Source of the DNA: Blasia pusilla
Taxonomy: Eukaryota
NCBI GenBank assembly: GCA_050084515.1
Contig: CM114271.1
Span: 10,168,001 to 10,232,000, forward strand
DNA: 64,000 nucleotides
Reading direction: 5' to 3'
The translations under genes and the position numbers were made by a program. Each line of letters opens with the position of its first letter. Position 1 is the first letter of the stretch. Of this stretch, positions 1,607 through 52,575 are shown in pieces. The notes under the pieces were generated by a model that did no database searches, was not told the origin of the DNA, and saw only the letters and a list, made by a program, of their open reading frames with translations.

Positions 1607-3092
1607 ACTATTCGCTTGAACAATGTTGTATGAGGGTGAGTGCTTGGTTTTTGTGTGGGATGTCACACATTTCAAGTGTTACTTATTCAAAAACCCCTTT
1701 ACCATCATAAGTGATCATCAACCACTTAAGTGGTTGATGGAGTCGGACAAGCTAACATGGAAGCTTACGAGGTGGGCTCTATTGTTGCAAGAGTATGATT
1801 TCCAAGTGGTGTATAGACCTGGGATGCTCAACTAGGATGCAAATGGTTTGAGCCATAATCCATGTCTGAGTTAGTTAGATGCTACTGGAGCTTGATGGCA
1901 TGGAGAGTGTGATGAAGAGTTGGTGCCAAGATGGCACGTATCAGCCTATTTGGGCTTGTTTGCTATAGAATGCGAGAGTGTTGAGACTTCGATGGCGAGG
2001 TTTGATGGAGAGTCATTAGATTGGCCGGTGAGGAGGCAACAAGTGGTCGAGATATTCACGAGGATGGAGTAGTCTTGGAGGACCTGGGTATTGGCAACAT
2101 CGCGAGCACAGTGGGTGCTAGAGAGCGGAATCACATCCTACGATAAGCTAGATGGTCCCGGTGGGAGGGGACACATGTGTTTTGAGTTTGGGAGGATGAT
2201 AGAGTACGTGTAGTGCCTCTTCTTTTAGAGAGAGTACGTTTGGTATGACATGCCCACTAGGAGTTGGGTCATTTTGGAGTGAAGCAGACATACATCTTGC
2301 TCAAGATACAATATTGGTGGAGAGGCATGCATACTTAAGTTTGGAACTTTGTTGCTAGGTGGATAGTGTGTGATCAAGTCTGGACATCGTTCAATGCTCC
2401 GACTCCACAGTTGCATCCACTTCTGATTGTGGATTTAGGTTAAAGATGGAATTTGGATTTTATAGGACCTTTACCTTTGGCAAAGCGCCATAGTCGTTAT
2501 GTGTTGGTGATGGTCAAACATCAAATTGGATAGAGTTTATTGTATTTTCTGAAAAAGTCAGTGAGGGAGTATCATATGCCTTTCTAGATTGAGTATTGAG
2601 AGTCATTACGGCGCACCAGCTGAGGTATTGACACACTAGGGTAAGGAGTCTCATGGGGAGTTTCAGGCCTTGTATGATCAGGCGCTAATCGACCACCACA
2701 CTACTTGGCGAGATCATCCTGAGATCGATGGATTGGCGGAGAGGGTTGTGTAGACAATGAAGAGAGGTTTATATTAGTATGTCTTGCAGAGAGGTCACCT
2801 AGAAGATAGGGACCTCTAGTTGCCATGCTTGGCAACAAGACACAGATTCAGCAAACAGGCCTCCTTAGCGTCTTTCTCATCGTATTTGGTGCTTTATGAT
2901 TGAGAGCCAGATTTATCTATGGCAATTTGTCAAGATGTTGCACGCTTACGATGTATGTTCTATGGTTGTGCCCGTGGTGCAGCCACTATGCTAGTTTGTG
3001 ATGGATGTTTGAGAGGATGGCATATGGTATGTTTGAGGCCACCTCTCACCAGGATTCCTCGGGGACAATGGATGTGCCCTAGATGTACATAG
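1607..3092 (+). pseudogene. Degenerate Ty3/gypsy pol: RNase H, integrase, C-terminal PHD finger
   Basis: RNase H: YEGECL..W..HFKCYL..PFTIISDHQPLKWL..RWALLLQEYDF. Integrase remnants: H..LGHFGV, W.LDFIGP, HPEIDGLAER, with many stops. 2943-3092 reads RLRCMFYGCARGAATMLVCDGCLRGWHMVCLRPPLTRIPRGQWMCPRCT*. Confidence 0.85.
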
Positions 3093-3684
3093 AGTAGGAA
3101 GTTATAGATTTTGACTTGTGTCTGTGACATGGATGACAAAAAGGCAACTAACGATGGGGCGACATAAGCATACGGTCTTTTTGCTCTTAGCATCCTAGAT
3201 ATATATATATCATGGTAGGTAGGGATAGATGGCTATGTGGAGTTAGAGGGACCTAACCACCAGCTAGGGGGGCAATTGGAGATATTTTGGTAATTCTCGT
3301 CTCATTTTTTGGATGGCATGTGTTAGCATGGGATCGTTCAAGTTCTTGTTTATGTTTGGTCACAACGATATATGTTGTGTAGCAATGTGTTTATGCACTA
3401 TAACTGTCACGTCTGTTAGGATAGATCGACAAGATAGTATATCATATAGTAGAGGGCCTTTGGACATACTAGAGGAAAGCCTTTGGAGGTCGAGGATTAC
3501 CCGCTGAGGCTACGAGTAACCATAGAGAGCAGGGTTCCCTTTTGTTTGGGGTTATTTGGAGCCATATTGAGGAACTTACTAGTTTGGATAAGGTACCGTT
3601 TTGGATATAGTTGCCTTTCCACTTTTGGAAGTAGCCCTTGACCCATTATAGCAGATCAATAGCCAATGAGATGGGAAAGGGTAT

Positions 3685-5609: not shown

Positions 5610-5621
5610 TGGTATCAGAGC
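5610..5621 (+). promoter_or_regulatory. Primer-binding site complementary to initiator tRNA-Met
   Basis: TGGTATCAGAGC immediately after the LTR end. Confidence 0.9.
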
Positions 5622-16197: not shown

Positions 16198-16705
16198 TGT
16201 GGCAAAGAGAACGTGCTTCTGCACGCTGTGAAGAGCAACCAGAATAGGACTTCTGAGCTGCTAACAGTGCTACAAAGCTAATAAGAACGATCTCAGAGAA
16301 AGTGAGGCCCGCTGGATCGGAAAGAAAACATGAAGCTGCAGATTGCGATTGACAGCTTACGTAGACGGAGAGTGTAGTGAGTGCGAGAAGAGAACACGCA
16401 CACATGAGGTTTACTGATTTTGCCGCTCACCAGCGATTCGGACAGAACGCTAAGAGGTAATACATTCAGGAGCACATACGATACAGAAGAGACCTCAGAC
16501 ATGGAATCTTGCCAAGCACAAGGGCAAGGGACAAACAAACCAGAGAGAGAGCAAAGCCGACGAAAGTTCCCGCGATCTGGGATCTGCGGATACTCGACCA
16601 ATGCACCCTCAAATTCTATCTCGAAAGCTACGAAGTATCAGTACACGGCTCAACTGCCTCCGGGGAAGACCAACGCGAGGAGGTAGATGGTGCAGGTGCA
16701 CCGGC

Positions 16706-18459: not shown

Positions 18460-21400
18460 TCACTCGTCATCGTCGAGAGCTCTTGCAAAATCACTTTCGG
18501 CCTTGCCCTCCCGATTTTGGGAATCGTTGGAAGTGACGATGGAGTCACTACCAAGGGTGGCTCGAACCGAGCTCTCGGCCGTGGAGAGTTGTACGCCCAA
18601 CGAGCCTTTCAGATCTCGCTTTGCCTCCTTGCAAAGGTCAAACAGATTCGCCTTCCTCGAGGCGCAGAATGTTCTGCCACTCGCCAGCGCCTCGATACTC
18701 GCCCTGAAAGGCCCACTAAGTCGAACACCAAGTCACCCGGCCTTGAGCAGAGCTCGATGAGCGTTGCATCGGGTGGCGACTTTTCCCTTCCTCCCGAAGC
18801 GGGTATCTTGTCTTGCATGTAAATTCCTCGGGGGAATTGTACAAACTATCTAAGCCGCACCCATCGAGCATGGATCCACAGGATCCTGGATCTTGAACAC
18901 TGAAATTGTGCTCGGGCCGAACGGCAAAGACATGTAGGAGTGGTCCATCGTCAGAATCAAGACGAAACAATGTCAGAAACTAAAGAAGTCGCCTTGAGAA
19001 TATTTTCAATAACTGACTTTGGATCAACCTGTCGGAGTCCGACGGGTTGTTTTGTCTCGGACCCACCCGTCGGAACCCGACGGGTTGCAGTTGCTTTTGG
19101 GTTTTCCAAGTTGATTTTGGTTTTCGGATGCAACCCGTCGGAAGGCGACGGGTTGCTGGCCTAGACCAGCCCATGCTCGCCTGAGAGCAACCCGTCGCTA
19201 TTAGACGGGTTGCATCCAAAAACCAAAATCAACTGCAACCGTCAGGTTCCGACGGGTTGCAGGTACACCGCGGTTTTCCCTCTGTATGTGGGAAAGATGC
19301 AACCCGTCGGAAACCGACGGGTTGCTCTCAGCCGAGCATGGGCTACTCTAAGCCAGCAACCCGTCGCCTTCCGACGGGTTCAGCAACCCGTCGCCTTCCG
19401 ACGGGTTGCTCACGGACAAAAAAAACCCAGACTGACTCTCATTCTACACATCATTCATTCAATAATTGAAATTATTGTATAGGAATATAGCCTTACCCGA
19501 ATCTGACTCGTTGCGGATCGGAGTGGGTACTCGTTTTTTATGATCCATGATTGTGCCGTCCTCCACTTTAGCGACCTCTTGACGATGGAGGTTGAAGAGC
19601 TCGCCTCGCTCCCTCCGATCCAACACCAAGAAGCGACCCCGTCACTCGGATAGGGCGTGCGCAAAGGAGAACAAAAGTGCACTGGTCATAAGTGAGCGGC
19701 AGATTCCACTCGGTACCTCGTCGCCGGATTTTCGCCCCAAAGTCGCGAACCCCGAGGGCAGATCGGCGATCAATAGATCCACCGCAACCTCTTCCACCAC
19801 TCCATTCACCGCCCGCAGCAGCGTGCGTCGTTTCGTTGGAGCTTCCTTCCCAGCGTTGTCAATTTTTCGATGGCGCTTGTCAACGCTTGAGAATCAAGTC
19901 GTTCACCTAATCCAAGAAAGAGGTGAATCAAGGAGGACGCTTGTCGGGGTCGTTGTTTGTCTGTGTCTTCCCAAGGATGATGTGGGTGTATTCTCCTTGG
20001 GACAACAGGGCACCTCTCGCTTCCGCTTCTCTCTAGTCTAGGGACGGCTTGTCGGGTTTCGATGACCTCTCATTCGTGGCGTTTTCTTCGCCGAGGACTG
20101 GTCCGACCTCTCTTCCGTAGTCAGGCACGATTCCGCCTCTGGCCTCTCATCTTCAGGCTCTTTTGGGAAGTCTCGGCCTCTGAATTTTCCCTCCCCTCGC
20201 CTTGCCTTTGAGACCCGTTGTGGATTTGTCTTTGGCTGTCGGACCTTGAAGCCTACTCACTGTGTCTCGTGGGCCTGCTCTTCGCATCTCCTCCGAAGAA
20301 GTCTTCAGTGGATGAAATTGGGGATGTCGTCTTGTCCCGAGGCCCCTTTGCATCATGAAGCACTCGTAAGTCCTTATCCGCGATGTCTTTGGTCGTTGAA
20401 GTCGAGCCAAATGGGGCAATTCTCCACCTCCCAATCCGACATGTCCGACCCATCTCCACGTTGTACATGGAGAATGTCTCTGCGCATCCGGCGAAGCCCA
20501 CAATTTCAAGGCTACAGCAATTTTCCCCACGCACTGCGTTCTTATAGTGGACGAGGTACTGAATACCATCCGTTGGGCGCTTTTAGTCGAACATTATCGG
20601 CCGTCGCTCTGAGATCTCGCTTCTTCTTCGCTTGATCCCGTTTGTTACCCTCTACTTCTTCGTCAAGCTCGCCGAGGGAGGACGCAAACCTTGAACATGG
20701 TCTTGAATCCGGGGTTCTTGGTTGGCTTGTCCCGGATGTCGCCGAGCCAAACCTCGTAATCTCCGAACTTTCGGGGTTTGCTTCCGGCGGAATGGGCTCT
20801 AATCTTCTGAGCTCCGCTTGCAGACCATCCAGCACGGACTTCCCGATTTACCCGCAACGCGTCCGAGAACAACCATTCGCGTAGCCAATGCAAGATCACT
20901 GGATCGGACACACCTAGGGGATGGTGTGCCGCCCTCTTCTGGGCCTCTCGAGCCCTCGAGATCGATTTTCATCGTCGTATCCTGAACTCGCTAATCCCGG
21001 ATAACGCAAAACGATGCACGCGATCCAGCGACACTTTCTCCCCAATCCGACCATGCGGATCTTCATCCCTCTTCCGCTGACGCTTGATAATCGCCTTGAG
21101 CTCCTTGTAGAACTCCGGACCAAGTTCGGGGTTGAGAATGCTGATGTATCGCTGGCATCTTGCTCCAGATGTATTTCGTTGCAGAATCTGGCCAGCTTGG
21201 ATGAATTTGGCGCTCACGCAGATACCTTCTCCCTCCGCTCCAACTCCGGTCTGGCGCTTTTCTTTCTGTATCTATCGACCAGCAAAGGATGGTTACGGCC
21301 TGCATCTTGAGAAATAAACTTGTTTGCCCAAGTTTTCTTCTTAATTTGAGCACCCTTTGCAAGCATCGATTGATGAGGGCATCGCCAGAACCCCCTGTAC

Positions 21401-21490
21401 TCTCGGGTGCGTCGTAAGCACCTTCCTCACCCGATCGCGATCCTGGATCCATTGGTGGGTAACATTCCCCTCGATACAATCTTGCACATC
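18460..21490 (-). pseudogene. Large multi-exon gene with a C-terminal beta-class N6-adenine/N4-cytosine DNA methyltransferase-like domain (frameshifted in this sequence)
   Basis: Motif IV-like VDLLIADLPSGF (19782-19747), then VPxWN, LFSFAHAL.PSDG, WIIKNEYPL. GT donor at 19496. After the intron: YPLRGGREKSP..ATLIELCSRPGDLVFDL..SGASIEA.LASGRNIL.LEE (~18810-18650, needs frameshift repair). Upstream coding fragments at ~20250-21490 have no recognised domain. Confidence 0.72.
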
Positions 21491-22657
21491 AAACTCAACC
21501 CGTCGAGAAATTACATGGGTTCCGCAACCCGTCGGACTCGACGGTGCGTCCGGCTTCGGGTGGATTCTAGCAACAAGCTAAATGATGCAACCCGTCGGAG
21601 TCCGGCGGGTTGCATTCAGATTTGCTAATGCCAGGTAAGCAACTTCGTCGGACTCCGGCGGGTTGCTACTATCAGATTTTCGAATGTCTTTTAAGATTGA
21701 CACTCGTCGGACTCGGCGACTTGTTTGATGGAACATAGATTTAACTAGTTTTTGGCCCAAAGCAAACCGTCGGAGTCTGACGGGTTGCTCGAAAGGCCGC
21801 CTTGTGAGGTTGTTTTTTTAAGAATGCAACTCGTCGCACTCCGACGAGTTGCTCGAAATATTCTTGCAGGTCTAGAAGGTTTTGCCCCAAAGCAACCCGT
21901 CGAGTCCGACGGGTTGCTACCTCAAAAGTTTTTGGCGAAATCAACCCGTCGGACTCCGACGGGTTGATTAGGGAAAAATAGCTTCAAGGCAAGCAACCCA
22001 TCGGAGTCCAACGGGTTGCTTTGGGGCAAAACCTTCTAAACTCGCACTACTCGAGCAACTTGTCGGAGTCCGACGAAGTTGCATTCTTAAAAACAACTCA
22101 CAAGGCGTTTATCGAGCAACCGGCCGGACTCGACGGTTTGCTTTGGGCCAACAACTTGTTAAATCTATGTTCAATCATACAAGTTGTCGGAGTCCGACGA
22201 AGTTGCAATCTTAAAAACATCCAAAAAGCGGCAGAAATCCAAAGAACCCGCCGGAGTCGACGAGTTGCTTACCTGGCATTAGCAATTGAATGCAACCCGC
22301 CGGACCACGGGTTGCATCATTTAGCTTGTTGCTAGAATCCGACCGAAGCCAGGATTTACCTGCCGCTTGAGTCCGACCGCTGCGTGAACCCATGTAATTT
22401 CCTCGACGGGTTGAGTTTGATGTGCAGATTGTATCGAGGGGAATGTTACCCACCATTGATCCAGGATCGCGATCGGGTGAGGAAGGTGCTTACGACGCAC
22501 CCGGGAGAGTACAGGGGTTCTGGGCGATGCCTCGTCAATCGATGCTTGCAAAGGGTGCTCAAATTAAGAAGAAAACTTGGGCAAACAAGTTTATTTCTCA
22601 AGATGCGGCGTAACCATCCTTTGTCGGGTCGAAGATACAGCCGCGAAGAAAAGCGCC
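21253..22657. repeat. ~1.4-kb inverted duplication (two ~0.7-kb arms) centred on a perfect short palindrome
   Basis: GCATCTTGAGAAATAAACTTGTTTGCCCAAG... (21302) is reverse-complemented at ~22577-22607. Centre AATCAACCCGTCGGACTCCGACGGGTTGATT at 21939-21969. The arms differ mostly by small indels. Confidence 0.9.
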
Positions 22658-24348
22658 GCAATGACCTCGCTGCCATCGAGTTGAACGGTGTTGTTTCCAT
22701 TATGTTGATTGTGTCCCCGACTTCGTGGGGACATTTCCCGATCTCAACACTTGCGGTTGACGGGCCGGGCTATCGTCAATGGCTATTGCTTTTCCCCCCG
22801 CTTTAGCCAATTCCGCCCTCCTCACCGACGGCCCGGACACTTCTTTTTCTCTTTTCGCCGGCAATCCTTTTCTTCAAGGCCTGCGACGTCTCGGCCTCTT
22901 CGTTCGTTTATCTAGCGCTTGAACACGCCTCGCGAAGCACTTGGTTGTGCATCTCCGCTTCCCTTTCCGCTCCTCGATTTCCTCGCCGCCTAATTTCATT
23001 CGCGAACGAGGCGCAGGAGAAGCCGACGCAGAGTCCTAATGGACTTGGGAGTGAAGCTCCGGACTTGTTGGCTTGTGTTTTTTTTTCCTTGTCATTTTTG
23101 CCGGAAATGCCTCCGCCTATGTCCACGCATTTAATCCCTTTGATCGATCGCCTTGCTGATGTCGAGATGGGAGCTCGTCTCGCCTTGGTGGTTAGCTCGA
23201 ATCGTCCCGATATTGCTCGGTCGAACCGTCTCGCTCTCGTTCCGTCCTATCGACTCGCGATGTGTTGTCGCGTGAAATGCCCCTTCGTATCTGATCAGCT
23301 GCTGCGCGGGAGAGTGAGGAGTGAGGAATGAAGATCGCGAAATGAGAAACCGGAAATGAGCGACTTCTACCCTATTTATACTTTTCTAGCCGTTGGGCTG
23401 ACCGTTGGGTCCCGTCGTCCTTTCGACGGCGACGTGCCGAATGTTACGGAAGTCCGGACGTGAAAAATCGCAACCCGTCGGAGTCCGACAAGTTGCGCGG
23501 CTCCGCCATCCTGGGAACGTCGCCACGTGCGCGAGCAACCTGTCGGAGCCCGACGGGTTGAGCGCCTCCGTCGTCTTCGGAAAAGAACGCGAGGTACCCG
23601 CGCAACCCGTCGGAGACCGACATGTTGCGTGCCTCCGCCATCCTGCGAACGTCGCCACGTGCGCGAGCAACCCGTCGGAGACCGACGGGTTGAGCGCCTC
23701 CGTCGTCTTCAAAAAACAACGCGAGGTACCTTCACAAGCCGTCGGAGACCGACATGTTGCGCGCCTCCGCCGTGTTTGGGACGGGAACAGGACGTATTTT
23801 AGGCAATCCGTCGGAGACTGTTGGGTTGCACGCTTCCCTTATCAAGGGTTAGGAACGATGGCTTACCGTGCAAGTCGTCGGAGTCTGGCCTGGTCGCACC
23901 ATTGGCGACGCTTGCGCAACCCGTTGGAGGGCGACGGGTTGCACGCCTCGCCGGGAACATACGGTTTGCACGCCTCCGGCATCTTCGAGCAAGAAGGAGC
24001 GGTATCCTAGCAAGTTGTCGGAGAGCGACGGGTTGCTCGCTTCGACAATGTTTAGCAGAAGCGTGCAACCCGTCCGATGCCGACGGGTTGCGAGCCGATA
24101 AGCTTCGGGTAATTTCGAGTTACCAGGACTCCGACGGGTTCCAAGTGATGCGCAACCCTCGCTTCCCAAATCCGGTAACATATTGCAACACAATTGAATG
24201 TGTTACAGAATTGGATCCATTGTGTCAGAAAATCTCCCCCACTGAATTCATCTTGTCAGTAAAAATCTGCCATGAGTATCTGTTTCCTATTCACTATAAA
24301 TTAAATATTCTCATTCTCATTCTCATTCTCATTCTCGTTTCCCCGTAG

Positions 24349-27300
24349 GAATCTTCTTGGAATGGATAATTATGTTAAGCTCACTTGTGGCGTCATCTGG
24401 CGGCCCTTCCTCAATCAAATCATTCGACCCCAAGCTCGTGAGTCTTTCGTGAGCAGATGGATGAAAATTTTCATGCATTCGATTTCTTCTTCAATTGGAA
24501 CCATCTTTGTATCCAAAGATGTTAGGGTGGAAGGTACGGAAGACATAATAGGTGAGACGGTCCAGCCAAAGTGACCTCGTAGACCGTAAAGTATGGAATC
24601 TCCTACACCGCCGCAAATGGTCAATACAGAGTTTACTTTTGCCCCTGAATTCGCCTGTTTCCCAAGTAGACGGTCTAGAATTTCCTAGTGCTCCGAGCTC
24701 ACGTTTGCAACTCCAAGCTCTGCAGATCCGGCCGACTCCAACCGCACACTCGTAACAATGTTGTTCTTCCCTGAAGAGATTCCGGATGTTATCAACCTCG
24801 GCCGGATCTGCTTCGGACACCAATCGGGCTCTGTCGTCACCTACTCGTTCCTCTTGCGAGTATCAGGCAATAGTTTGCTTTCGTCTCGCCCTTGAAAATG
24901 TTCAAGCATATTCTTGTCGCATTTAGCCGCCCACGCACGATGGTAATCGCATTTTTGAGTTGCCTCCACTTGCCGCTCTGCTCAAAAGAAGGATGGAGGA
25001 TGCCTGAAGGGTATGGGGAGTAAAGTCGATTGTCATCGATGGTGCAGGCTTCAACGGACCAGTGCTTCCATCCCATATGGTCCTTGGATTGTCTCCCGCG
25101 GCCAATGCGTGGGAGCCTTGGAGTGTAGAAGTCCACCATGCCCGTATCTAGAGCGCAACGGGCGAGTCAATACGTCGTAATTCCCCCCCAAGAATGCAGA
25201 AACTCCATACGAGGTGGGTGCCACAATACCGCCGGGAGGCCATCGATGTCCTCATTGTCAGGCATCGCCCTTCTACGTTGGAGCGTGTCCTGCATACATA
25301 TTTTTCATTGTCCATGACTTGGGCTCCACGCCGAGTATACAAGGTCGGGGATTCATGTTGGCTCCACACTCATCCTGTGGACCGATGCAATTCAAAGACA
25401 CATCAAGGAGGATGTGGCGAAGAAAGTAGCCGAGGTCTTCAGAAACTCTCCGGGTTCAAAGCCCGGGGTGATCAAGCTCACAATGGCATCACAAATTTGT
25501 GAGCAATTGCTTGGAATCCCTGGACAGGGCGAGATCACGGCGGTTGAGGAGAAACAACTCGAGAAAATCTCACATTTTCGCTGATCCCGAATGCTTCAGA
25601 ATTTCTTTGCGTCGATCTGAGTTCGGATGGAAAGACGGCCGAAATGGATGCCATCGCGTAATCAAGGCCAACTCCAGGTTTCCATTCATTCAGAGATGGC
25701 GTTCATGGGCCAAGGAGGCGAGGGATCCAGGGCCTATGTCTTCAAAATGTCAACCACAGTCCGTCGAGTGGCCTCGATCTTATAGATCGAATGAGGGAAG
25801 GGGAAGATCTTTACTGAGCCGGGTCAGGTCAGCTTTGATATTTGCTCAGAGTGCTGAATGGATGGTTGACGATGGGTGCTCACGTTTATGACCATGTGGA
25901 GAAGGGACTCAAAACTATATTTGTGTGTGAAGTAAAGGCGAAGATGTTGGCGGTTTGAAGATGTCTTTGGTTACTCTTATTGGAGGTGGTGAAGGAAAAC
26001 AAAAGGCCACCTCCGAAATTTATGGGTTCATGGTAGACAATGCACAACCTGGGTGGATTGCTATCCGGAAGTGTTTCGGGGTGGAGAGGTTCAACCTGAG
26101 AGGGAAAGGTTGGATGCTTTCCATTGGCAATGATCTGTGACCCGGTACACCAAATCTTGCATCAAGGAGAATAAGAGGACGGAGCATGTCACTCTACTCC
26201 AACGCTGCAAGGACAAAGCAAAACTTGAAGCAGGCCATGGATCGGGAAGAACTTCATGGGTGGTGGAGGAAGCATGCGATTGAGGGGAAGTACAAAGAGT
26301 TGTGCTCTTGGTTGAGTTGGTGGATGCGTATGAGACAATGGGGAAACTTCATGCGGCAGGTGAGTTCACTATTTTGTCTTGTCAAGCTCACGCTGAGAAT
26401 TGTTTGTAAAGTTGTAGCTCAGGGTGAGAAGCGTGGGAATTATATGGATTTCAAACCCAAGAGACCAAGCAAGCTGTCGGATGCGACGGGTTGCCCGAGT
26501 GTGCAACCCAATGGAAACCGACGGGTTGCCCGAGTGTGCAACTCGACGGAAACCGACGGGTTGCCCGAGTGTGCAACCCGACGGAAACCGACGGGTTGCA
26601 TCCACATGTTTGGTGTCGTCCCGGGTGTGCAACCATTCGGGACCCGACGGGTCACAGAGTCGTTCATGGGATGCCTCGGCCTTGCAACCCGTCAAGTTCC
26701 GACGGGTTGCAGTAGGTGGGTTTAAGTTACAACACGTCGGGACCCGATGGGTCGCAGAGTCGTTCATGGGATGCCTCGGGCCTACAACCCGTCTGGTTCC
26801 AACAGGTTGCTTATTTCTTTGACTCCTGGGTTATTTTCGTTCCCTTCTAACATTGCCGTCGTTGCAGGGATTGAACGTTCATGAAAATGCCCTGTGCCCC
26901 AACACAAGTGGAGAGAAAGTGTTCATTCCTCTTGAGGTCGTCACAAGCATGCCAACAAATTTCACTTGTGGAGGCATGCCAACAAGACCAGGCAAGAGCA
27001 ATGCTGATCTGCAAACATCCCATATCTTTCTCACAAAAGGCATAACAAAAGGAAAAGGGCCGTCGATCTACGAGCTCTATGTCAGGGCGGTTGTGAGATC
27101 TGGTCATGAAAAATTGTATGTCGAAGCCTTCAACCGGTGCGTAGCTGGAACTCCACTCGAGCAAGACGTACACATTGGTGGGGATATTCGTGGGCGGGTT
27201 TCAAGACGTCCCATATAGATGGTGGTAGAGCAGTCCGAACGAGACTCGTGGAGACCACATAAGTATCTTGACTTGCGGTGAAGAGGCAAGATCGAGGAAC

Positions 27301-28337: not shown

Positions 28338-28789
28338 GGATGCAAAATGAGGTTTTAGATTGTACTTTTATTTTTCCTCAACCTTCACTTTGAGCTTGAA
28401 CTCTATTCAGCCCGGGGCAAATGATAGATTTTTTCCAGACTTTGGATGGAAAAAGTGATTGGTTCCACACTTATGATTCCACTGATTTTTCAGTTTTCTA
28501 AATTTTGTGCAATTTGCAACTCGTCGGACTCACAGGGGTTGCCAAAATATGGAAGAGGAAAAAAACACTGTGGGATTGTTTAATAAATGAACAAAACAGT
28601 GCAAAAATATTCACACAAAAAGTTTCCTCTCTTCAACCCAACGGAAACTCTCGTAAAAAAAAAGTATCTATTTCGGTTGAAGGTAGTTTCCTCTCTCCTC
28701 TCTCCTCTCTTCCTCTCTCCTCTCTCCTCTCTTCCTCTCCTCTTACCGCACCTCCCCACAATGCTATCTTCTCCCTGTCCTCCAACCTG

Positions 28790-31029
28790 ATAGAAAGCTG
28801 ATGATAGCCAACACGGAGATCTTAAGTAGTAAAGATCTTTGCATGACCTACCGCATCAAAGCTCTCCTCTGGAGTAGGCACGGCATGGCATGACACTCGC
28901 ATCTGTCTCTGCTCAGCCATATCTAGGCTGACTATCCATGTGAGATAATTGAGGTCCATCGCTTGCCCCAACACCTGTCTCCAAGATGCCTCAGTCATAC
29001 CTGGCACCGCTGTAGTACCCATAGCGAACCCCATGGCTTGCTCGCGCTCATCTACTGTAGGCTCCTCCAATGCAGGGGTCACCTCATCCCAAATCATATC
29101 CGGCCCTCCCTAACAAAGACATGGGATGTAGGGAAGCTCACCAACGTAGGTAAGGCTGCCCTCAACTCCCCCGCCCTATTGGTCATCGCCAACGGTGGTC
29201 TATCATCCCGCGTCACCACTTGAGATTGACGCGCTAAGCCCAAAATAACATCCACTGTGAGATGTGGTGCTCTCTAGACTCTATCGTATGCTCGACTCAG
29301 TACTTCTGATGGTATCAGGTTCGTCCACCACAGTCGTGGATGATGGGCGGGTGATCCAACTCTTGCTACATCTAACAACACAACAGGTCCCAACCAGGAC
29401 CTCACCTAATGCACACTCGTCATCACACATGCAAGAGTGTCTCTCAATAATGGCATGTTCTCCAAATTGTACGCCGGAGAACATGTCTGACTCTCCTACA
29501 CGTGTCGTACTACTCGTAGCATCTCCCAAAACATCCCTCACCTCGGATCCTGCAATCCAAACCCTCGGCCAACTGATGAATGATCCTCATATGGCCCCGT
29601 ACTGCAGATACCGGCAACAACTCAAGATACCTCTGGACCAATCTCGCTACGTGACATAATGGTTCTCTCCGCGCGGTCTCATCTCTCTCCACATAAAGGT
29701 ACTGATGCACCTGTATGTCCGCCCGCAATACCGCAGCCAATCCTCTGCTAATCCCTCCAAAGAGATCTTACATCATAACACCCTCCTCTGGACACTACCA
29801 CACAACGAGTGTGATATCCAGTAGGGTCAACGTCTCCACTTCAGGGGCCCAATCGCCACCTGACTCTCGCTGCTCCGAGATAAAGGCATGACTCCACGCC
29901 TGCCTCATGATGTCGTCGGCACTCCTCTGTAGCTCTCAAGTCGTACCTCACAATGGTGAAGAAGTCTCGCCAACATGGGAAGAGACACCCGCCATGGCTT
30001 GCCTCTCTTTGGGACTATCCACTACTGGGACATCCTCCGCATGTGCGTTCCCCTCCAACAACTCTCTTGGCTAGTTAACACTACTTGTGAAAGCTACCAA
30101 CGTGGTCACAGACTTATCTCGTGATCAACCGCCTTGTCCCGCAAGCTGCACGGGTAGCTAACTCATCCGCCCATCACCTGACCGCCATCGTGGTCGATAA
30201 GCAACAGTCTCCTCCCAGAAGTCAAGGATGAATCCTAGGGGATATAACACTATACTCCCCACCAACACATCGTACGACTCAATTAGTGTGGTAATCGCAC
30301 GTGTGCGCACCATAGCATTATCCGTCGGATGCTCTGGCTGGACTCTAACAACTATCTCTTGTCAAGTCATATATTGCGTGGGTGACACGCCCCCAATTCA
30401 GGTCTGTATCTAGAAGGGACAAGGCTCAATGTCGGCCTTTCGTAACCCCAACGCTAAATATGCCACCTTCCCTAATATCAAGGGTTGCGCTCCTGAATCA
30501 AGTAGGATGCGCTGCAGGTGGTATATTGTCCCCGTCAGATTAACCAGGAAAAATACTCCAGCTCGATTAACCAGTAGCACTACTCCAGGTGTCATCACTG
30601 CTCGCTCTATGGCCGGTCGAGCTAGCATATCTACCAACTTTTCCGCCACCGCATGCCATGACTCTGTGGGGGACGTCCCTTGCACCTACTCTGAGGGCAA
30701 GTCCACCACCTCCTCAACTACCTCTGAACAAGAGGTAGTCACCTCTCCATGCTCACACAACTTGGCGGCTAGGCGGAACACCTCAGCTGGTCCAACTCCC
30801 AATGTCGCCAACTCTATGGCGGAAAATAGCTGAGTGTGGCTCACTCTAGTGGCCACCTCCAACACTATGGTTGACACTGACTCCACTCAAGCCAGCATAT
30901 GAGTTGTCACTCCAACTCCTCATGACGTCGATGTACTTGCCTGACCTATAGGCACTGCTGGTCGTCAAGGCATCATCGATGGTGTGTGTAGTGCCTGCAA
31001 CAATATGAATGAATGTGGAACCCTGGCCT
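28790..31029 (-). mobile_element. Gypsy-like retrotransposon, downstream part: gag-protease linker, aspartic protease, C5-DNA methyltransferase
   Basis: Protease RILLDSGAQPLILGK (~30510-30468). The frame joins 44489+ across the CACTA TSD (GWQ|ARVPHSF..TPSMMP), matching the uninterrupted homolog at ~57735 (KQARLPQSF..TPSMVP). Confidence 0.85.
28822..29785 (-). pseudogene. Cytosine-5 DNA methyltransferase (DNMT) domain remnant inside a retrotransposon polyprotein
   Basis: Motif I DLFGGISRGLAAVLRADIQVHQYLYVERD (starts 29767). Motifs IX-X EEPTVDEREQAMGF..GTT..RQVLGQAMDLN (~29070-28945). The central PC motif region is not seen; ~29280-29590 is unrelated or decayed. Confidence 0.78.
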
Positions 31030-31372
31030 CACTAGTAGGAAAGGGGTTATTTTAAACCCATATCATTGAGACTCGTATTACTAAGAGTCATTGTAATCAC
31101 TCTTAGTTACTCCAAAACTGACATTGTGACTCAAGAATTACTCACACGGTAGGGGAGTCACAATTTGATACTTATATGACAACATGAAAAAATCTAGGAA
31201 GCCACTTTAACTTGTATATTGATGTTTAAAACCTAGCCATGTAATGAGAAAAATGAACATTTTATTTCTCCTCTCCATCTTCCAAAGAATGACCTAGATC
31301 ATTTAACCTACAACTATAGTATTCTGAAGAAAATGACTAAAACCTGTTAAAAGATAAGAAAAAAGTTACGAA

Positions 31373-31429
31373 TGTAAGGGAAATAGGTACGAAGGTAAGG
31401 GAAATAGGTACGAAGGTAAGGAAAATAGG
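31373..31429 (+). repeat. 20-bp tandem repeat (GTAAGGGAAATAGGTACGAA-like), about 3 copies
   Basis: gtaagggaaataggtacgaag repeated directly. Confidence 0.85.
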
Positions 31430-31581
31430 CTTTAGGCCCTAAACCCTCTTGAGGTTCAAAAACCCTAACACACGAGCCCACGTGTGCATTTCTCCCTCCC
31501 CCATGCCCCAACTCTCTATCTCTCTTCCAACTTGTGACAGGTCAAGCTTCCTTTGATAGGCTGCATACGAGGCAAGGTAAG

Positions 31582-37686
<6,105 letters not shown>

Positions 37687-39799
37687 CACTCTCTCTCTCT
37701 CTCTCTCTTGTCGTCCGGTGTGATACCTGACCATACAATGTTGGTGCATAGATTCAAGTGTTAGAACTTGGAGAGGTTCCACTCCAAGTTTTGATATCAA
37801 ACAAACAAGTTCAGATATCACACCGGATGACAAGCCTTTTGGGAAAGAGAACGGTCAGATTTGACAATCGTTGGTGGTTGGCAGAGCTTTGGAGGAATCA
37901 GTGTTGGATTCTCAACATCCACTCCTTTGAGCACCATTAATCTAATCGGCCCCCTTGTATGAGGAGAAGCCTAGATTGATGGTTCCGACTTAGACGTCGA
38001 AGGAGTCATAGTAATATGACGTAGGTGGTTTACGGAGTAGCGTTACTAGGTTTATCTAACCCTATATTGCATCAGGGTGCGGGGCACCTTGATGCGTCGC
38101 GAGGGTCCGGGGGCGCAGCCCTGGTATGCCAAGACGACGCAGGTATTTTTCTTCATTTCTATTAATAAAAATGAAGAAAAATAGGTAAAAACCCTAATTT
38201 TCCCGAGTAGTCAAATAGTCAGGAGCCGCAGCGCTAGCGCATTCTCATATGTCGAGTTATCTCCCAGTTCAGGTTCCATCAAAGCTCTTCTGTGAGCGCA
38301 CGGACGGACTAGGCCACTTTGTATCTCTAAGTTTTGTAAAGATTTCAGTGATTTCGTCACTTTATGTTTTCTCACAGTCAAAGCATATAGTGAATAGGTA
38401 TAAAAATTTGGAAGCTATGTTTTCCCTGGACGCGGTTAAAAAGGGTTGAAATCTTATTGAAATTCATGGGTTGTTTTCGTAGGAACTTATTGGATATCTT
38501 AATGGACATGTGCGTCATATACTGCAATAACAAAAATCTCCTGTACAAAAAAAATCCCTCCTCAATATGTATGGTGATTTCTTTGTAAACTTAATTTTGA
38601 ACTACTCTTTTCACTTGAATGGAGAGAGAAGTTTTGTTGTCACTGATTACCGGGCAGTTGTAGCCTTGTGCACCATGGAGAGAGAAGTCTTTGGAATGTA
38701 ACATCCTTCATGTCTCTGGATGGCATCAGAGTGATGGCGGGTGTTTCTTTCCAACCAATGGTTCAAAACGACTCAGGGTACTTTTTGTCTAGATTACGGA
38801 GCCTTCTTTTTGAAGTGAAGGTCAAGATCTTTACCATGAGCAGGCCTCCTAGTCTCTTGGACCATATCCTTGCCCTCCCAGAATCTGCGAGGGCAAACAT
38901 TTGTTACTTTCATGCTTACTCTGACCGTTATTGGACCCCAAATAGGCGACAAAGGCAGACTAGGAATTGGCTATTCCGCTTAGAAGATCGCCAAGTGTAT
39001 GTGTAATTTGTAGACATTGTTATGTGGAGGGAGGATAGAGGAGCACTATTAGCATGGCTAATGCTTGGGGTCACCCGCAAAGTCACTCTTCATATTTGTC
39101 ATGATGAAGGGGGGATTCTCCCTAGGGAGGATCATCCCATTGTTAGGAAGGCACGAGCCATCATTGAATATGCGCGTTTTATTTGTGGCCACATGGTAGA
39201 GGTTACTCTTGAGTATTGTAATACTTGGGAAGTTGTAACCTCGGGGGACTTAGTATGCATTCGCTCAAGTCGTGGAACAATTTCTGGGAAAGTTTGCAAA
39301 TGTTGCCTAAACATATGCCGTGATGCTGAAGTATGGCAATGAGTCAGATCCGTAGCCTAACTTGAGGCCCCTCATATGACAAACGGATAACATTTGTAAT
39401 TGTTAACATGAAGACAATAAGAGGATCCATGGTTGCCAATCATGAATTCAGTCACCGTTATTTGTCTTCATTGATGGAATTGGGCTTATTTTGAGGGGGC
39501 ATGTGTGTACACTCTTAACCTTGGACGATAAAAGACGCTATTACGGGGATGTATGCAACCAAATAATTAATAAGAAGTAATGATTTCTATAGAAACAATT
39601 GCTTCTTATGCTACTTAACTTTAACTTGTTCTATGTACAGGTACCAAACGTTTGACTATTGGAAATCCGAGTATCGTGAAGGCTATAGGTAACCTCCACA
39701 TGCACTGACATCCATTTTCTAGCTTTTTTTTCCATGCCTCAATCATGGACATTCAAGATCCATTGAATTTCTACACCTAATAGTAATCTTATTGTCTTT

Positions 39800-42700: not shown

Positions 42701-43307
42701 CCTTTGAGTTGAGGTATGTAAGTTTAGAGTGATGTTGTGCATTTTACTTTGAAGTTGCTAAAAAGCATGATCTATTTGAAAGGGTAGTGAGACATTCTTG
42801 TTGATTGTGATTGTAGAGACCACATATGAGGCCCCGGCTGTTGTAGGAAAACGCCAAGTGAGGACATCGCGGAGATTCAATTTGGAGGCCACGGTATTTT
42901 CAGAGGAGAATGAGGATAGTGCAGGGATGTTGGGGAGTGGTGGACCCACGGAGTTGGATCTTCTGCAAAAGCCAATGGTGGTGAGAAGAGCAATACTCAG
43001 GAAGAGGACCCGAGAGGCTACCAAGCCGTTGTTGAAATTTGTTGTGCCTCCGTTGCAACAGTTGGTATCACGTGAGAACCCCTCTGTGGTTGTAGGTTAT
43101 GGCAGCTTGCATGATGGTTGTTCTACTTTCCATGGACGTGACATTCCTGTAAGGCATTCTGTTCTCCATTTGAGAGAGGTCTACAAGAAAAAATATGTAT
43201 TACCATTTCCAAATATGGCTGACGATCCACTGCAAATTTCTGCTGGAGATGCCATAGATTGTGTAGTGTTATGGCCCTCTCATCTTGTTATGCTTTCTCA
43301 AAAATAG
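39800..43307 (+). pseudogene. CACTA accessory (TnpA-like) multi-exon gene with N-terminal EDM2/NSD-type PHD fingers
   Basis: PHD: CAICKDGEDLVVCDGPCARHFHAT (39930+), then WLCQDC..RCAKC..KCPDTFCVRFFC. Ptta/En/Spm-like: PPPHVDPNQWGRLLTHF..KSEQMSKAR..GRKG (~41690-41850). Tnp1-like: FHGRDIP..LPFPN..GDAI..VVLWP (~43090-43290). Exon structure not resolved. Confidence 0.75.
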
Positions 43308-44488: not shown

Positions 44489-47400
44489 CCTGCCATCCAT
44501 CGGTCTCCTTCGGTGGGTCACTCTCAACTCCACCTCTCGATGGCTCAGTGCCTCTCGCAGCACCCCGAGTCACCACTGCAGCAGCCTCAACCTGAGCTGC
44601 ACTACACATAAACCCTATAATTGCAATATCCTCATCTGGGTCTGGGTAAGAGGTAGAAGCTGGAGCCACATTAGCTGCTCGTGGCTTTGTGCCTTCCCTG
44701 AGCTACATCATCGTCATAGGAGCAATCCTTTGCTCCAATTGATCGTTGCGTGAGAGAAGTGCTGGCTCTGGTGCTCCTTCTCCATCTCCTCTGCCTGGTG
44801 GTGGTCCTCTACTACCACGTCCAGGAATAACTCCCCGACCTCCTCCAAGCCGACCGCCTCCAGGCCGACCGCCCCCAGGCCCTCGGCCTACCTCTGGACG
44901 TGCCTCTCGACGAAGGTCAAAACATCTATCCCTAGTGTGACCATATCGCTGACAATAGTCATATTGGTACTGTGGTGGGGCCATCCTCTATGGCTCCTAA
45001 GCAATCAGAGGCGCTCGTGGTCCTCTCCCATATTGTGTGCAGTCTCTCTGCCTCCGGGCCCCTCCACACGTCCAACAAGACAACATCGTTCCCTGTTGGG
45101 CAACATATGTAGGTACGGGTTGTTGCCTCATAGGCTCACGGTTCCCGCCTTGCTCTTTGGGCACAGTGGCCCACTCCCATGATATTGGTGCTCACTATGG
45201 CACCTGCGGGTTCACCGTCGCTCCTGGACCCGTCGACTCTCGAGAAAATCCAGCGGTCACTAGCTGCTTCTTACTCATGTTGAGCTCAATACGCTCAGAC
45301 AACTCGAAGACCACCTTCAATATGGGCTTTGCTGTGTGAATCAGCACCACATCTCGGACTCTCCTCCGTAGTTCTCAGTCCGGAACCCCATACCAATACT
45401 CGACTGACTGCGCCTCAATCACTCCATATGTAGCAATGATCAGCCTCCGCATGCGGGTGAATGCCTCTCTCAAACTCTCACTATATCGTCGTTGAAAATC
45501 GTGTAGACTCTTCAGCTTGTCGGTGCGAACGCCCTGGTAGCTCTTCCTCAACCGTAGGAAGAACTCCATTGTGGGACTGAAGCTGGTTCGACCTCTACCA
45601 CCAAAGGTCTCTGCCACATTGCATGTCTCACTGCCCTCCTCTCCATCTAATCTTTGGGCCGATGGTGTGGGTCTTTCTCCTCTCACGATCCCATCATATG
45701 CCTCACAACCACTATTGGACACATACCCTGGAGCCCAATACATCCTCCAGGCATCGATTTCCAGTGAATATAGTGATCAAAACACCATGTAATCATCCAT
45801 CGGAGGATCCTCCAAGTGCTGGAAGAACCCCTTTCATGCCATGAAAGGGTTGAACGGTGTTGGGGTTTGTATCTCTTGGAAGTCGCACCACGTGTCAAAC
45901 TCATGGATAAAATCATCTAAGTTGATGGTGCCCACTGCACTCAAGAAACAACGTATGCCCCGATGGCCCATGTCGTCCATCTCATGCCAAGTGATATTGC
46001 CTCCGTCTGCAATCTCATCATCAGATCTAGTGTCTAGTGATGATCATCCAACCATGGATGGATGTCGAGGTAGCTCCTCACTCGTAACTCCTCGTTATCT
46101 CACTCCACTCCATGTCACGCCACTACTACTGCTCATACTATCCAGTTCTTCTGAACCGTGGAAGAACGCCGTGATGACAACCCTGTCTCACCCGCTCAAG
46201 CACTCAGACTCACCAAAAGTCTCCCATACTCCTCACTAGCTCACTGACGCTAATGGTAATCCTCTGACGACACACCCGGCCTCACGCACACTCAACACTC
46301 GGGCTCACCATGAGCCTCCCAACTAACTCACCTAAACCACTCACACTCTTGAGTCATACACGTGACCCATACACGGAAACCGTCGTATATCCACAAACAT
46401 GCTACACATGCATGGAGACTACACTCGTCACCATCGCTACACCCATCTAGCCCTAGCAACTACTCGACACCCAGCACTCTCAATCGCATAAGATAAGTAT
46501 GGGAAAAGGGACTCGAATGGGTGACCTGATTATGCCCTCCAACCTACGGCACCTTCAACATCCACCCCTCCATGTGATTTGATAACCTGCGTAGCACAAT
46601 ACTCTCCTCGACCACCACGTCAAACCTCCCATCAGCATCAACGTGTATGCCTCCATCAGAATCCTCACAAACCCCAGCCACGCCCAAAAAAGATCACGTC
46701 CTGAAAAAATCTCTCCGCCCATCCAAACTCAACCATGCCCATCTATCACGTCGACTCAGTCAACCACGTTCATCCCTCCCAATTACATGTTCCAACCAAC
46801 CACATCCGCCCTGTTTGCCTACGTCAATCATATCCGTCGTGCCAACCACATCGGGAAGGGGCCGACCACGGCACTCCAAACCACGTTACTGCGAGCATGT
46901 ACTACGTAGGAGAGGGGATGTGATACCCAAAATTTTGTAATTTTGGAGATTTATACATTTTGAATCAAGGAATGAAGACTCTATGAAGTAAAGCTTGTAT
47001 ATACAAGACTGTCTTGGATATTATTTTTACGTATTGGAAGAATGAGTAGTATTGGAGTGGATCACGATGCTTCTAGGACAAGGTAGAGAGGTGGAAAATC
47101 AAGGACTTGCCCTGGAGGAGAGGGAAATGAGGTCACAAAGTCTAAAGACTAAGAGCAAAGCTTGGCAAAGACAACGAAGCATGATGAAGAAGAAGAGGAA
47201 GAAGTACTTCGCTCTTCAACGAAGCACGAAGAACAAAGCACAAAGCACGATGAACAAGCGCAAAGAATGCAGCGCTTTGTCCTCAGACAAAGAGGAAGAG
47301 CTTTGTCCTCAAAGGAGGAAGAAGAGGTTCAGACTTCGCAGCGAAGCTAAGACTGGTTGTGATTTCAAGCGGCACACCGTTAGAATAGTTAGGCTAGGAA

Positions 47401-49140
47401 GAGACGTGATTTTTTGGACCAGATAGGAAGTTAGGAAAGTTACAACCAGCGGATTCATAAGGATCCTAGGAAAAGATAAGAGAACCGTAGATCAAAGTAG
47501 TTACAAAATCCCAATAGGTACTAGATTCACAAGAGACGCTTCAAATCTTTAGGACTACTACTGTCTCAGAGGATATTTAAGAAGCATGAAAGTAGCTTTC
47601 AACATCATTCTCTCACGAAGTCCTTTTGCATTAGGAATGGTCCGAGCAAGGGAGTAGTACCCTCTCGTGCTTGTATACAGTTTGAAGCTTTCTCATTCTT
47701 GATGGAATAGTAAAGGATTATCTTTCTTCATTTTGATGTGCGGCGTGTATTCGTGAATCATCTTATTGGGTCTGTAGAGTGAGAAAGAGATCAGGAGAAC
47801 ACTATCACCACTAGAATAATCAACAGCAAGTTGCAAGAAATTCGTTCGACACAGAGTAGCCTGCCTAGACGGATTGAGTTCCGAAAGTAGGAGAAGCCAT
47901 CTTCTTGTTGAGATCTTTGTGAGGTTCTTTGGTGTTGAGTAAAGATATGCCTGAGCATGAATTCAATTCCACTGGAGAGAAAAGAGGAAAGGAGAATCTT
48001 GGTACTTATAAGAAGGAGAATAAGCGAATGAATGCTTGAATCTGTTTTGTATCAACATAATTATCAAACTCACATAAACGACTCACTTCAACTTTCTTTT
48101 CAGACAATCGTGATTCTCTAGGGGATCGAACTCCATAAATCACCTTAAAAAGATCAATTCTTATACTTCTACTACATTACAGGGGGGGATGGGGAACTAA
48201 ATGGGAGGGGAAGAGAAGAGTCGTGGCCAAGGGCCGTGGCTCCGCGCCCTCGGCTCCATCTGCCTCCGCGCCGTCTTGCCTACCGTCCCGACTCCGGCTC
48301 GCAGTCACCTGCGACCTAGCCGTGCCTAGCCCTAGGGGCCCTTGCAACCCTAGCCCCCTAGCGGTTGCAAGACCTGAAAGGCTGAACTTCTCTCTCTTTC
48401 CCGACACGCGCCACTCACCCATCAACACTACACTCGACGCTACTCCCAAGCGCCCTTTTCGCTACACCGCTACTGCCATACACAGGTCCGCTACTAGAAA
48501 AAATCAGGGAAAAATGAGCAGCGCTTCTGTGCATGACCTCCTAAACTGAAAAACGACAATTCAAACGCCAACCAACGTCTCTAGGGGCTCCCCACCGAAG
48601 CAACTCGCTTGTCTATCTACAAACAACAAATTCCTACCAGCCCCCTCACATATCTCTCATGTAAAAATAAAGAGTAGTAAAAACGGCACACCTAGCCTAA
48701 AACTCCACTCCTCAATCTACATCCGCACGTCGAGCCTCGTCCACTCTGCGCTATCAAGGAATCCGAACGCTAGCACCCTAGTCCTATCTCACACACATAC
48801 AAGAGAGGTGCTCCAACGGCCAACATGAGAAAGATGGCTTGGGAAAGCCATCTTCCTCCCTTATATAGGGTTGGGAAGAGCCAAAAGGCTCTTCCCCCAA
48901 AAATAGCTATCCTCTTGGTAACTTGCACGCATAGGTTACCAGGGGCGGGTGACCTGCTCAACAAGTCACCGGTTGTGAAAGACCTCAATAGGAAAGTTGT
49001 CATAAATGACATTCCTGACACAACAGACCTATCCTTAACCTCATCTAACACCGCAGAACAAAGTTACACGCAAGACAGTCCGCTGGCTCCTATGCCCTAT
49101 CCACGATAGATCTCGGCCTATCGGCTATTGAGATGTGACA
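44489..49140 (-). mobile_element. Upstream part (LTR/UTR and gag) of the DNMT-carrying gypsy-like element
   Basis: Gag: GTINLDDFIHEFDTWCD, FQRR..ESLREAFTRMRRLI, zinc-knuckle remnants (YCQRYGHTRDRC). Homologous to 56215-57912. Putative LTR start TGTCACA at 49140; LTR extent unresolved. Confidence 0.75.
46919..48181 (+). mobile_element. Solo LTR (~1.26 kb)
   Basis: Termini TGTGAT...ATTACA. Flanks GGGGA / GGGGG (TSD with one mismatch). Homologous to 8166-9123. Confidence 0.8.
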
Positions 49141-49760: not shown

Positions 49761-49812
49761 TCATGTAAGTCATCTTAATGCAATGTTAATAATTAAATAA
49801 TATGGAACAAGA

Positions 49813-52560: not shown

Positions 52561-52575
52561 TCTCGGCGTTTAGGG

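What the first reader, a model, noticed from the sequence alone, without database searches (positions are those of the whole stretch)
28822..31029. Gypsy-like retrotransposon with a cytosine-5 DNA methyltransferase after its protease
Seen: on minus, gag (44489-46100) joins in frame across the CACTA insertion to protease LLDSGA. DNMT motif I (DLFGGISRGLAAVLRADIQVHQYLYVE) and motifs IX-X (EREQAMGF..GTT..RQVLGQAMD) follow. The catalytic PC region is lost in this copy. Known: motif I resembles DNMT3/DRM-type LFxGI; DNMT-carrying retrotransposons are described from Klebsormidium and Symbiodinium. Inference: such elements also exist in this probable land plant. A second family copy (56215-63492) shows it amplified. 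It may methylate its own cDNA.
Basis: partly seen in the sequence, partly recalled or inferred. Interest (0 to 1): 0.8.

Follow-up and report, generated by a model that had tools for sequence, protein, structure and literature searches.

The report
Plant retrotransposons carrying a DNA methyltransferase
A broken jumping gene in this plant genome belongs to a group with well over a thousand copies that carry their own DNA-methylating enzyme and insert through an unusual internal joint; this kind was described from an alga and turns out to be present in liverworts and peat mosses too.

Summary
Confirmed and extended. The window holds a decayed Ty3/Gypsy element with a DNMT3-like C5-methyltransferase between protease and RT. 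The genome (probably a liverwort) has 1,298 exact copies of the catalytic WPCQG 17-mer in at least three families. Full copies read A–[Gag-PR-DNMT]–leaky stop–[RT-RH-INT-PHD]–B–A–B with 4-bp target duplications. The domain folds like DNMT3A and is under purifying selection like RT (dN/dS 0.10–0.21). Relatives lie in Marchantia, Calypogeia, Riccia, Sphagnum, Closterium and Klebsormidium: this is the land-plant branch of KnitGypsy-Dnmt3 (PMC5890265), not a local capture. New anatomy: a self-priming site and a polypurine tract show the true LTR is B+A, with a palindromic CA-GC-TG integrase site inside it. The 'DIRS-like' repeats look like a permuted Gypsy cDNA opened at the upstream site only (463 to 1). 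Self-methylation of cDNA is likely but unshown; mutation spectrum and CpG content match a control element. None of 59 fetched copies is intact. Ten literature searches found no land-plant report.

The parts
48663..49140 (-). 5' repeat A (starts TGTCAC; holds TATA and the presumed self-primer)
   Evidence: 87% to repeat A of full copy L037
48649..48662 (-). Primer-binding site directly after A (decayed here); in other copies the reverse complement of a 14-mer 29 nt after the TATA
46082..48648 (-). 5' leader, interrupted at about 46638-48574 by unrelated DNA
   Evidence: blastn to copy L049
44489..46081 (-). gag part of ORF1 with zinc-knuckle-like motifs, several stops
   Evidence: 87% DNA to L037; 77% aa
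31030..44488 (.). CACTA insertion (CACTAGTA ends, 3-bp duplication CCT), itself holding nested elements
30164..31029 (-). Rest of gag-PR linker and aspartic protease (LLDSGA)
   Evidence: related proteins hit Asp_protease_2
28903..29794 (-). DNMT3-like C5-methyltransferase, broken: stop before motif I, ~89-bp deletion at 29595/29596, PY for PC, motifs VI, VIII-X recognisable
   Evidence: tblastn with natural domain P0001, 67-78% identity, E 5e-91
28754..28886 (-). RT remnant after a ~640-bp deletion; the element is cut off here (no RH, INT, PHD, B-A-B)
   Evidence: 92% DNA to L037 RT; 74% aa
56086..63493 (+). Copy of sister family 2 (gag, PR), split by a Copia element at about 57910-62850 and ending before the DNMT
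1629..3420 (+). 3' end of another relative: RH, INT, PHD, polypurine tract, B-like repeat and a decayed CA-xx-TG joint

Best explanation
This is a dead copy of an old green-lineage Ty3/Gypsy clade (KnitGypsy-Dnmt3 type) that burst to thousands of copies in this bryophyte. Shown by sequence: ORF1 is Gag-PR-DNMT, followed by an in-frame TAG-CAR-CCA and RT-RH-INT-PHD; repeats are A-coding-B-A-B; the DNMT is kept by selection. Inferred: the stop is read through, so the methyltransferase is made at Gag level, packed into the particle and cut free by the protease; the RNA primes itself (Tf1-like) and uses a polypurine tract, giving a cDNA with LTRs B+GC+A whose ends lack TG/CA; integrase cuts the palindromic CA-GC-TG inside the upstream LTR with a 2-nt stagger, inserts those two ends, and the original cDNA ends are joined (A|B). 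The DNMT most likely methylates the new cDNA, probably at CG, so that it arrives looking like host chromatin or is protected while unintegrated. Odds: identity and anatomy about 0.9; opening at the internal site about 0.7; cDNA methylation about 0.55.
For: Natural open frames carry motifs I, IV (WPCQG), VI (ENV), VIII (RxHRxR), IX, X; PF00145 above cut-off; best solved relatives DNMT3A/B by sequence (E 6e-10; profile 1e-27 against 2e-15 for DRM and 4e-10 for HhaI) and fold (pLDDT 96, TM 0.73); Cys, Glu and Arg invariant in 52 of 52 aligned relatives. Between-family dN/dS of the DNMT 0.15-0.21 raw, 0.10-0.15 net, RT 0.15/0.10. Leaky-stop motif in 33 of 36 covered family-1 and 11 of 16 family-3 copies. 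Self-primer match exact in 16 of 23 and 8 of 14 copies, different sequence in the two families, with a G:C/A:T co-change in family 3. Purine tract ends exactly at B in both families. 4-bp duplications exact in 12 of 24 and 6 of 6. Spacer GC in 28 of 42 joints, the rest nearly all CHG-type decay. Another Dnmt3-type retrotransposon enzyme methylates CG in yeast (PMC5890265, section read).
Against: No enzyme assay; the Klebsormidium enzyme showed no activity in yeast, called inconclusive there. C-to-T spectrum (CG 0.155, CHG 0.167, CHH 0.02-0.04) and CpG o/e (0.66-0.68 against 0.67) are like those of an ordinary chromovirus in the same genome, so no trace of self-methylation. Volvocine relatives keep the domain without the catalytic Cys. 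A symmetric 2-LTR circle predicts both permutations, but the count is 463 to 1, and that one is a B-A-B-A-B tail; the asymmetry is unexplained. Length changes at A|B are only modestly enriched: 10 of 40 against 2 of 32, p 0.054. RNA reads show no start at the presumed primer. Synonymous distances are near saturation.
Confidence: 0.6

Rival explanations
1. The enzyme is active but works on chromosomal DNA: delivered with integrase and the PHD finger, it methylates the insertion site, the integrated copy or host loci in trans.
For: PHD finger at the end of integrase (PF00628, E 4e-10); over a thousand loci with an intact catalytic motif; low sense transcription of related families over the DNMT region.
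Against: DNMT sits in ORF1, separated from INT-PHD by a stop and the protease; spectrum equals control; the Klebsormidium methylome is plant-like.
Confidence: 0.17
2. The domain is kept for a non-catalytic job, such as binding cDNA or RNA in the particle or clamping the integrase site.
For: Chlamydomonas and Pleodorina relatives keep a full-length domain lacking the PC motif; no activity for the Klebsormidium enzyme in yeast; Gag-level expression would suit a structural role.
Against: Catalytic Cys, Glu, Arg invariant in 52 of 52 diverse relatives; Cys kept in 33 of 39, 8 of 9 covered and 15 of 16 covered copies of families 1-3.
Confidence: 0.13
3. The split repeats are copied as in PAT/Ngaro elements: the RNA runs through A-B at the 3' end and every junction is templated, with no end-joining and no cut at an internal site.
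For: Explains why only A-coding-B-A-B is seen (463 to 1); most A|B junctions are precise (30 of 40).
Against: A ends exactly at the primer site and B starts exactly at the purine tract in two families, as LTR ends do; B1 and B2 share copy-specific variants, so both come from one template; single extra A or T at some A|B joints fits untemplated addition.
Confidence: 0.25
4. The DNMT is a one-off host gene fragment carried passively by this copy or family.
For: The window copy is broken; within families dN/dS is 0.5-0.7.
Against: Three families, four liverwort or moss genera and two algae carry it at the same place; selection between families equals RT; within-family values are the same for all domains.
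Confidence: 0.02

Closest known systems
KnitGypsy-Dnmt3 of Klebsormidium nitens (PMC5890265)
   Same: Gypsy domains, unpermuted Dnmt3-like DNMT in the polyprotein, DIRS-like repeat layout (figure legend), purifying selection. K. nitens KFL_009030040 has PR-DNMT-RT-RH-INT order and 45% identity in the DNMT.
   Different: Land-plant host; over 1,200 loci against 33 DNMT genes in all in Klebsormidium; in-frame stop between DNMT and RT; PHD finger; self-primer, purine tract and internal att joint not mentioned in the parts read. That KFL_009030040 is the paper's element is my inference.
SymbioDIRS-Dnmt3 (PMC5890265)
   Same: Dnmt3-type domain in a retrotransposon, A-coding-B-A-B repeats; shown to methylate CG de novo.
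   Different: Tyrosine recombinase and DIRS-type RT there; DDE integrase, TG..CA ends and 4-bp duplications here.
Tf1/Sushi and Tcn1 chromoviruses
   Same: Self-priming with a primer site complementary to the transcript's own 5' end (PMC6317226 passages; details recalled).
   Different: Those have ordinary LTRs and a chromodomain; here a PHD finger, a DNMT and permuted repeats.
EpiLTRs / DAM-LTRs (bioRxiv 10.64898/2026.05.21.726589)
   Same: LTR elements with methyltransferases plus a chromatin reader.
   Different: Their DNMT is sister to DNMT4, paired with DAM and a chromodomain; the preprint treats streptophyte Gypsy-DNMT3 as separate.
Retroviral 2-LTR circle junction cleavage by integrase (foamy virus, HIV; recalled, no call)
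   Same: A palindromic CA..TG joint cut by integrase into two reactive ends.
   Different: There a side path made by end-joining; here the joint is encoded inside the LTR and appears to be the only route.

Membership tests
C5 cytosine methyltransferases (PF00145) | Motifs I, IV (PC), VI (ENV), VIII, IX, X in order; profile above cut-off | tested here: met
   Natural frames score 27-40 bits against cut-off 22; met for the family, not for the broken window copy
C5 cytosine methyltransferases (PF00145) | SAM-dependent methylation of cytosine | not testable with these tools
   No assay; indirect spectrum tests showed no difference from control
DNMT3 family | Closest to DNMT3 catalytic domain by sequence and fold, unpermuted motif order | tested here: met
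DNMT3 family | Placement in a tree with host DNMT3, DRM, MET1, CMT | tested here: inconclusive
   No host enzyme obtained: the only DUF3444 locus showed no DNMT in the 3.6 kb held; trees have no outgroup
DRM | Circularly permuted motifs (VI-X before I-V) | tested here: not met
   Order I to X colinear with DNMT3A
Ty3/Gypsy | PR-RT-RH-INT order, DDE integrase | tested here: met
Ty3/Gypsy | TG..CA ends and short target duplication | tested here: met
   4 bp: 12 of 24 exact plus 8 with one mismatch; 6 of 6
Ty3/Gypsy | Two complete identical LTRs flanking the coding region | tested here: not met
   A-coding-B-A-B: B-A-B end in 24 of 39 family-1 loci
KnitGypsy-Dnmt3 | Dnmt3-like domain inside a Gypsy polyprotein, homologous and at the same place | tested here: met
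   45% to K. nitens domain, PR-DNMT-RT in both; grouped apart from chlorophyte type, SH-aLRT 99, midpoint root
KnitGypsy-Dnmt3 | DIRS-like repeat layout | tested here: met
   the paper's wording seen in legends only, K. nitens DNA not examined
KnitGypsy-Dnmt3 | Purifying selection on the DNMT | tested here: met
   0.10-0.21 between families; paper reports <0.2
KnitGypsy-Dnmt3 | DNMT in one uninterrupted ORF with RT | tested here: not met
   Conserved in-frame TAG between them; Marchantia gene models also end after the DNMT. A variant, same frame.
DIRS/Ngaro/PAT | Tyrosine recombinase, no target duplication | tested here: not met
   rve integrase and 4-bp duplications
Chromovirus | Chromodomain after integrase | tested here: not met
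   PHD finger instead
REXdb Phygy/Selgy | RT-RH-INT phylogenetic placement | not tested
   No reference sequences held; passages read mention no methyltransferase

The most novel reading that the evidence does not exclude
A green-lineage-wide Gypsy clade has moved its integrase sites inside the LTR and integrates only as a permuted molecule, and its DNMT3-like enzyme is part of that cycle: it marks the cDNA (for instance the conserved CGCACGACA beside the cut) so that only one of the two identical sites is cut. In bryophytes these elements would be a large, overlooked source of de novo methyltransferase, annotated as hypothetical genes in Marchantia.
Probability: 0.15. Interest if true: 0.9.

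Novelty: new variant of a known kind. Interest (0 to 1): 0.72.

Why it matters
Why retrotransposons keep the enzyme that silences them has been open since 2018, and the hosts described were hard to manipulate. The same clade sits in Marchantia polymorpha with long open Gag-PR-DNMT frames (Mp4g09160 and a cluster of 18), so the question becomes testable in a model plant. The anatomy offers a concrete explanation for 'DIRS-like repeats in a Gypsy' and a natural case of integration through an internal palindromic joint. LTR finders that need paired LTRs would likely miss these elements, so bryophyte repeat and DNMT catalogues may be incomplete (inference).

Tried and rejected
Pfam on two window DNMT fragments: no hit, too broken. 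Within-family dN/dS: 0.43-0.77 in all domains, only decay. Mutation spectrum and CpG/CHG o/e against a control chromovirus: no difference. Symmetric 2-LTR-circle model: rejected in simple form, 463 to 1. My first reading of a single ORF was wrong. Host DNMT3 via DUF3444: one locus, no DNMT in the 3.6 kb held, so no host comparison. Run search: no RNA holder listed. RNA start and end calls did not mark the presumed primer. Full 128-row tree did not finish; smaller quick trees used 67 of those 128 rows and 68 of 164 RT-RH rows. ESM Atlas gave only generic C5-MTase clusters, two of them viral, which is no sign of transfer. One hit labelled as a bacterial MAG (P0391, 2.4-kb contig) treated as probable mis-binning, not tested. 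No earlier scan findings.

Full report
OBSERVATION. Six-frame reading confirms the quoted motifs on the minus strand. Against a full genomic copy (L037) the window element lines up as repeat A 49140-48663, gag 46081-44488, linker-PR-DNMT 31029-28880 and an RT remnant 28886-28754, at 85-92% identity. The 13.5-kb interruption is a CACTA element, 31030-44488, with a 3-bp duplication. The DNMT is dead in this copy: a stop precedes motif I, about 89 bp are missing up to IAGW, PC reads PY, and a second deletion of about 640 bp removes the end of ORF1 and the start of RT. The element at 56-63 kb is a sister family whose window copy stops before the DNMT.

HOST. The window is G000:C1:10168001-10232000 of a 390-Mb assembly in 26 contigs, nine of those seen over 14 Mb. 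A chitin-binding receptor kinase lies in the window, repeats decay at CG and CHG, and the nearest named relatives of the element are from liverworts. A liverwort is probable; this is inference.

ABUNDANCE. The 17-mer coding WPCQG occurs 1,298 times exactly, control 0. It is retained in 21 of 39 family-1 loci (best hits), 3 of 11 family-2 loci and 2 of 9 family-3 loci not chosen for it, so 2,400-5,000 loci is a rough estimate. Three families were sampled: F1 (the finding), F2 (56-63 kb; 9 of 11 other loci hit the DNMT at about 65-76%) and F3 (found through RNA loose ends). A1/A2 repeats differ by 1.9-8.2%, median 4.8% (22 of 23 pairs, one short pair dropped). The longest stop-free frame in 59 F1 and F3 loci is 673 codons; none is intact.

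THE ENZYME. Natural open frames hold the whole domain and pass the PF00145 cut-off. Closest solved proteins are DNMT3A/B, then DRM, then HhaI. The model has pLDDT 96 and matches DNMT3A with TM 0.73. Catalytic Cys, Glu and one Arg are invariant in 52 of 52 aligned relatives. Pairwise dN/dS between families is 0.15, 0.18 and 0.21 (net of within-family decay 0.11, 0.10, 0.15), against 0.15/0.10 for RT and 0.10/0.05 for INT; dS is 1.1-1.7, near saturation. Target context cannot be read from sequence.

ANATOMY. Full copies are 8.5-11 kb: A, leader, Gag-PR-DNMT, RT, RNase H, integrase, PHD finger, B, A, B. B-A-B ends 24 of 39 F1 loci; the rest are cut, rearranged or end in one B. Of 24 loci with both ends, 12 have an exact 4-bp duplication, 8 one mismatch and 4 none (rearranged or tandem); F3 6 of 6. 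An in-frame TAG-CAA-CCA (F1, 33 of 36 covered) or TAG-CAG-CCA (F3, 11 of 16 examined) follows the DNMT; it fits the CAR-YYA read-through signal (recalled). Directly after A lies a 13-14-nt site that is the reverse complement of a stretch about 29 nt after the TATA box in A: exact in 16 of 23 F1 and 8 of 14 F3 copies, at most two mismatches in 21 of 23 and 12 of 14, unrelated in sequence between families, with a paired G:C/A:T change in F3. Directly before B lies TAGGGGGGCG in both families. B and A are joined by CA-GC-TG within the palindrome GACAGCTGTC (GC in 10 of 23 F1 and 18 of 19 F3 joints, the others almost all CHG-type decay); 205 and 317 exact joints were counted.

MECHANISM. Primer site and purine tract define an ordinary LTR of B+GC+A whose outer ends lack TG/CA; the integrase sites are inside it. 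The integrated form equals that cDNA opened at the joint of the upstream LTR, with the original ends joined as A|B. Support: B1 and B2 share copy-specific variants; A|B shows length changes in 10 of 40 copies against 2 of 32 at the A|primer border (p 0.054; one anchor failure dropped, with it 11 of 41, p 0.03), including single extra A or T. Against the simple version: both joints should be used, but the purine-tract form outnumbers the alternative 463 to 1 in F3, and the one is a B-A-B-A-B tail. So one site is chosen by something unknown, or the junction is templated as in PAT/Ngaro elements. With the DNMT in ORF1 it would be abundant in the particle, which favours cDNA as substrate. That step is inference. 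Two indirect tests were neutral: C-to-T rates by context and CpG o/e match an ordinary chromovirus, as expected if host silencing dominates.

EXPRESSION. Three raw RNA runs with the same species label as the best DNA holder laid 2,164-2,369 reads each from 1.5-1.8 Gb, mostly under 95% alike, mainly with the first mate on minus (sense RNA in the usual protocol), depth about 4-16 over the DNMT and 72-130 reads across the F3 joint. This is low, summed over many copies and families, and no silent control stretch was laid.

RELATIVES. Named hits: Marchantia polymorpha (up to 73% over the whole domain), M. paleacea, Calypogeia fissa (73%), Riccia sorocarpa, Sphagnum troendelagicum, S. fallax, S. tenellum (61 of 61 and 120 of 259 rows listed). 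No vascular plant name appears in those rows, which is weak evidence. Klebsormidium KFL_009030040 has PR-DNMT-RT-RH-INT order and 45% identity; a Closterium protein has DNMT-RT. Among 375 proteins held, 306 have the domain: 95 after PR or before RT, 119 after RT/RNase H, 92 uninformative. The second layout includes Chlamydomonas, Pleodorina, Tetrabaena and Haematococcus, degenerate in the two volvocine domains printed. In quick trees without outgroup, bryophyte domains form one group (SH-aLRT 100) and the two layouts separate in both DNMT and RT-RH trees (99). F3 groups with Marchantia and Sphagnum rather than F1/F2 (98), so lineages are older than the hosts' split or moved sideways; the Sphagnum models are fragmentary.

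LITERATURE. PMC5890265 describes KnitGypsy-Dnmt3 in K. nitens only (seen: first of 7 text parts, sections 10 and 11, passages; 0 mentions of Marchantia or embryophyte in the main text; searches in three supplements; the main supplementary PDF and figures could not be seen). bioRxiv 10.64898/2026.05.21.726589 and PMC12344493 say 'streptophytes' (passages; one supplement without hits; preprint supplements closed), so bryophyte sequences may stand in trees I could not see. Passages only: PMC6317226, PMC9940879 (a PHD-bearing Chlamydomonas Gypsy), 10.1101/2021.11.30.470311, PMC11982613, PMC12885004; none of these passages mentions such an element in land plants. Ten searches found no land-plant report and no account of the permuted LTR; subscription journals and Repbase were not searched. 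Tf1 priming details, the read-through signal and circle-junction cleavage by retroviral integrases are recalled.

VERDICT. Real; a new variant of a known kind. The capture is known, while the land-plant range, the scale, the Gag-level placement and the internal integrase site appear undescribed in what I could search. Interest 0.72.

Noticed in passing
window 14560-16260 (-): Intronless open frame for a receptor-like kinase with two hevein-type chitin-binding repeats (PF00187, E 2e-18) and a kinase domain; the only clear host gene seen in the window.
   Followed up: partly
window 1629-3420 (+): 3' end of a further relative of the clade (about 71% DNA to family 1) with RH, INT, PHD, purine tract and decayed joint; whether this family has the DNMT was not checked.
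   Followed up: partly
window 5500-11500 (+): Ordinary chromovirus-type Gypsy with chromodomain; its family served as control.
   Followed up: partly
window 19000-26800, also 28510 and 52700-52900: Many copies of a palindromic 24-32-bp repeat (CAACCCGTCGG..CCGACGGGTTG type), probably subterminal repeats of a large DNA transposon.
   Followed up: no
window 49800-56000: Tandem duplication of about 3.65 kb at 79-90% identity.
   Followed up: no
P0370, P0318 (Chlamydomonas Cre09.g398141, Pleodorina): Chlorophyte Gypsy-PHD polyproteins keep a full-length DNMT-like domain between RNase H and integrase without the catalytic PC; Pfam misses it in P0370.
   Followed up: partly
P0026, P0036, P0381 (Sphagnum): Peat-moss elements nest among liverwort elements on short branches, a possible horizontal transfer.
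   Followed up: partly
L159 (G000:C1:24336873-24340508): The only DUF3444 match in the genome looks like the tail of a DnaJ-type gene (recalled architecture); a DUF3444-bearing host DNMT3 was not found.
   Followed up: partly
L158 (G000:C6:28613702-28616821): A family-3 copy ending in B-A-B-A-B.
   Followed up: partly
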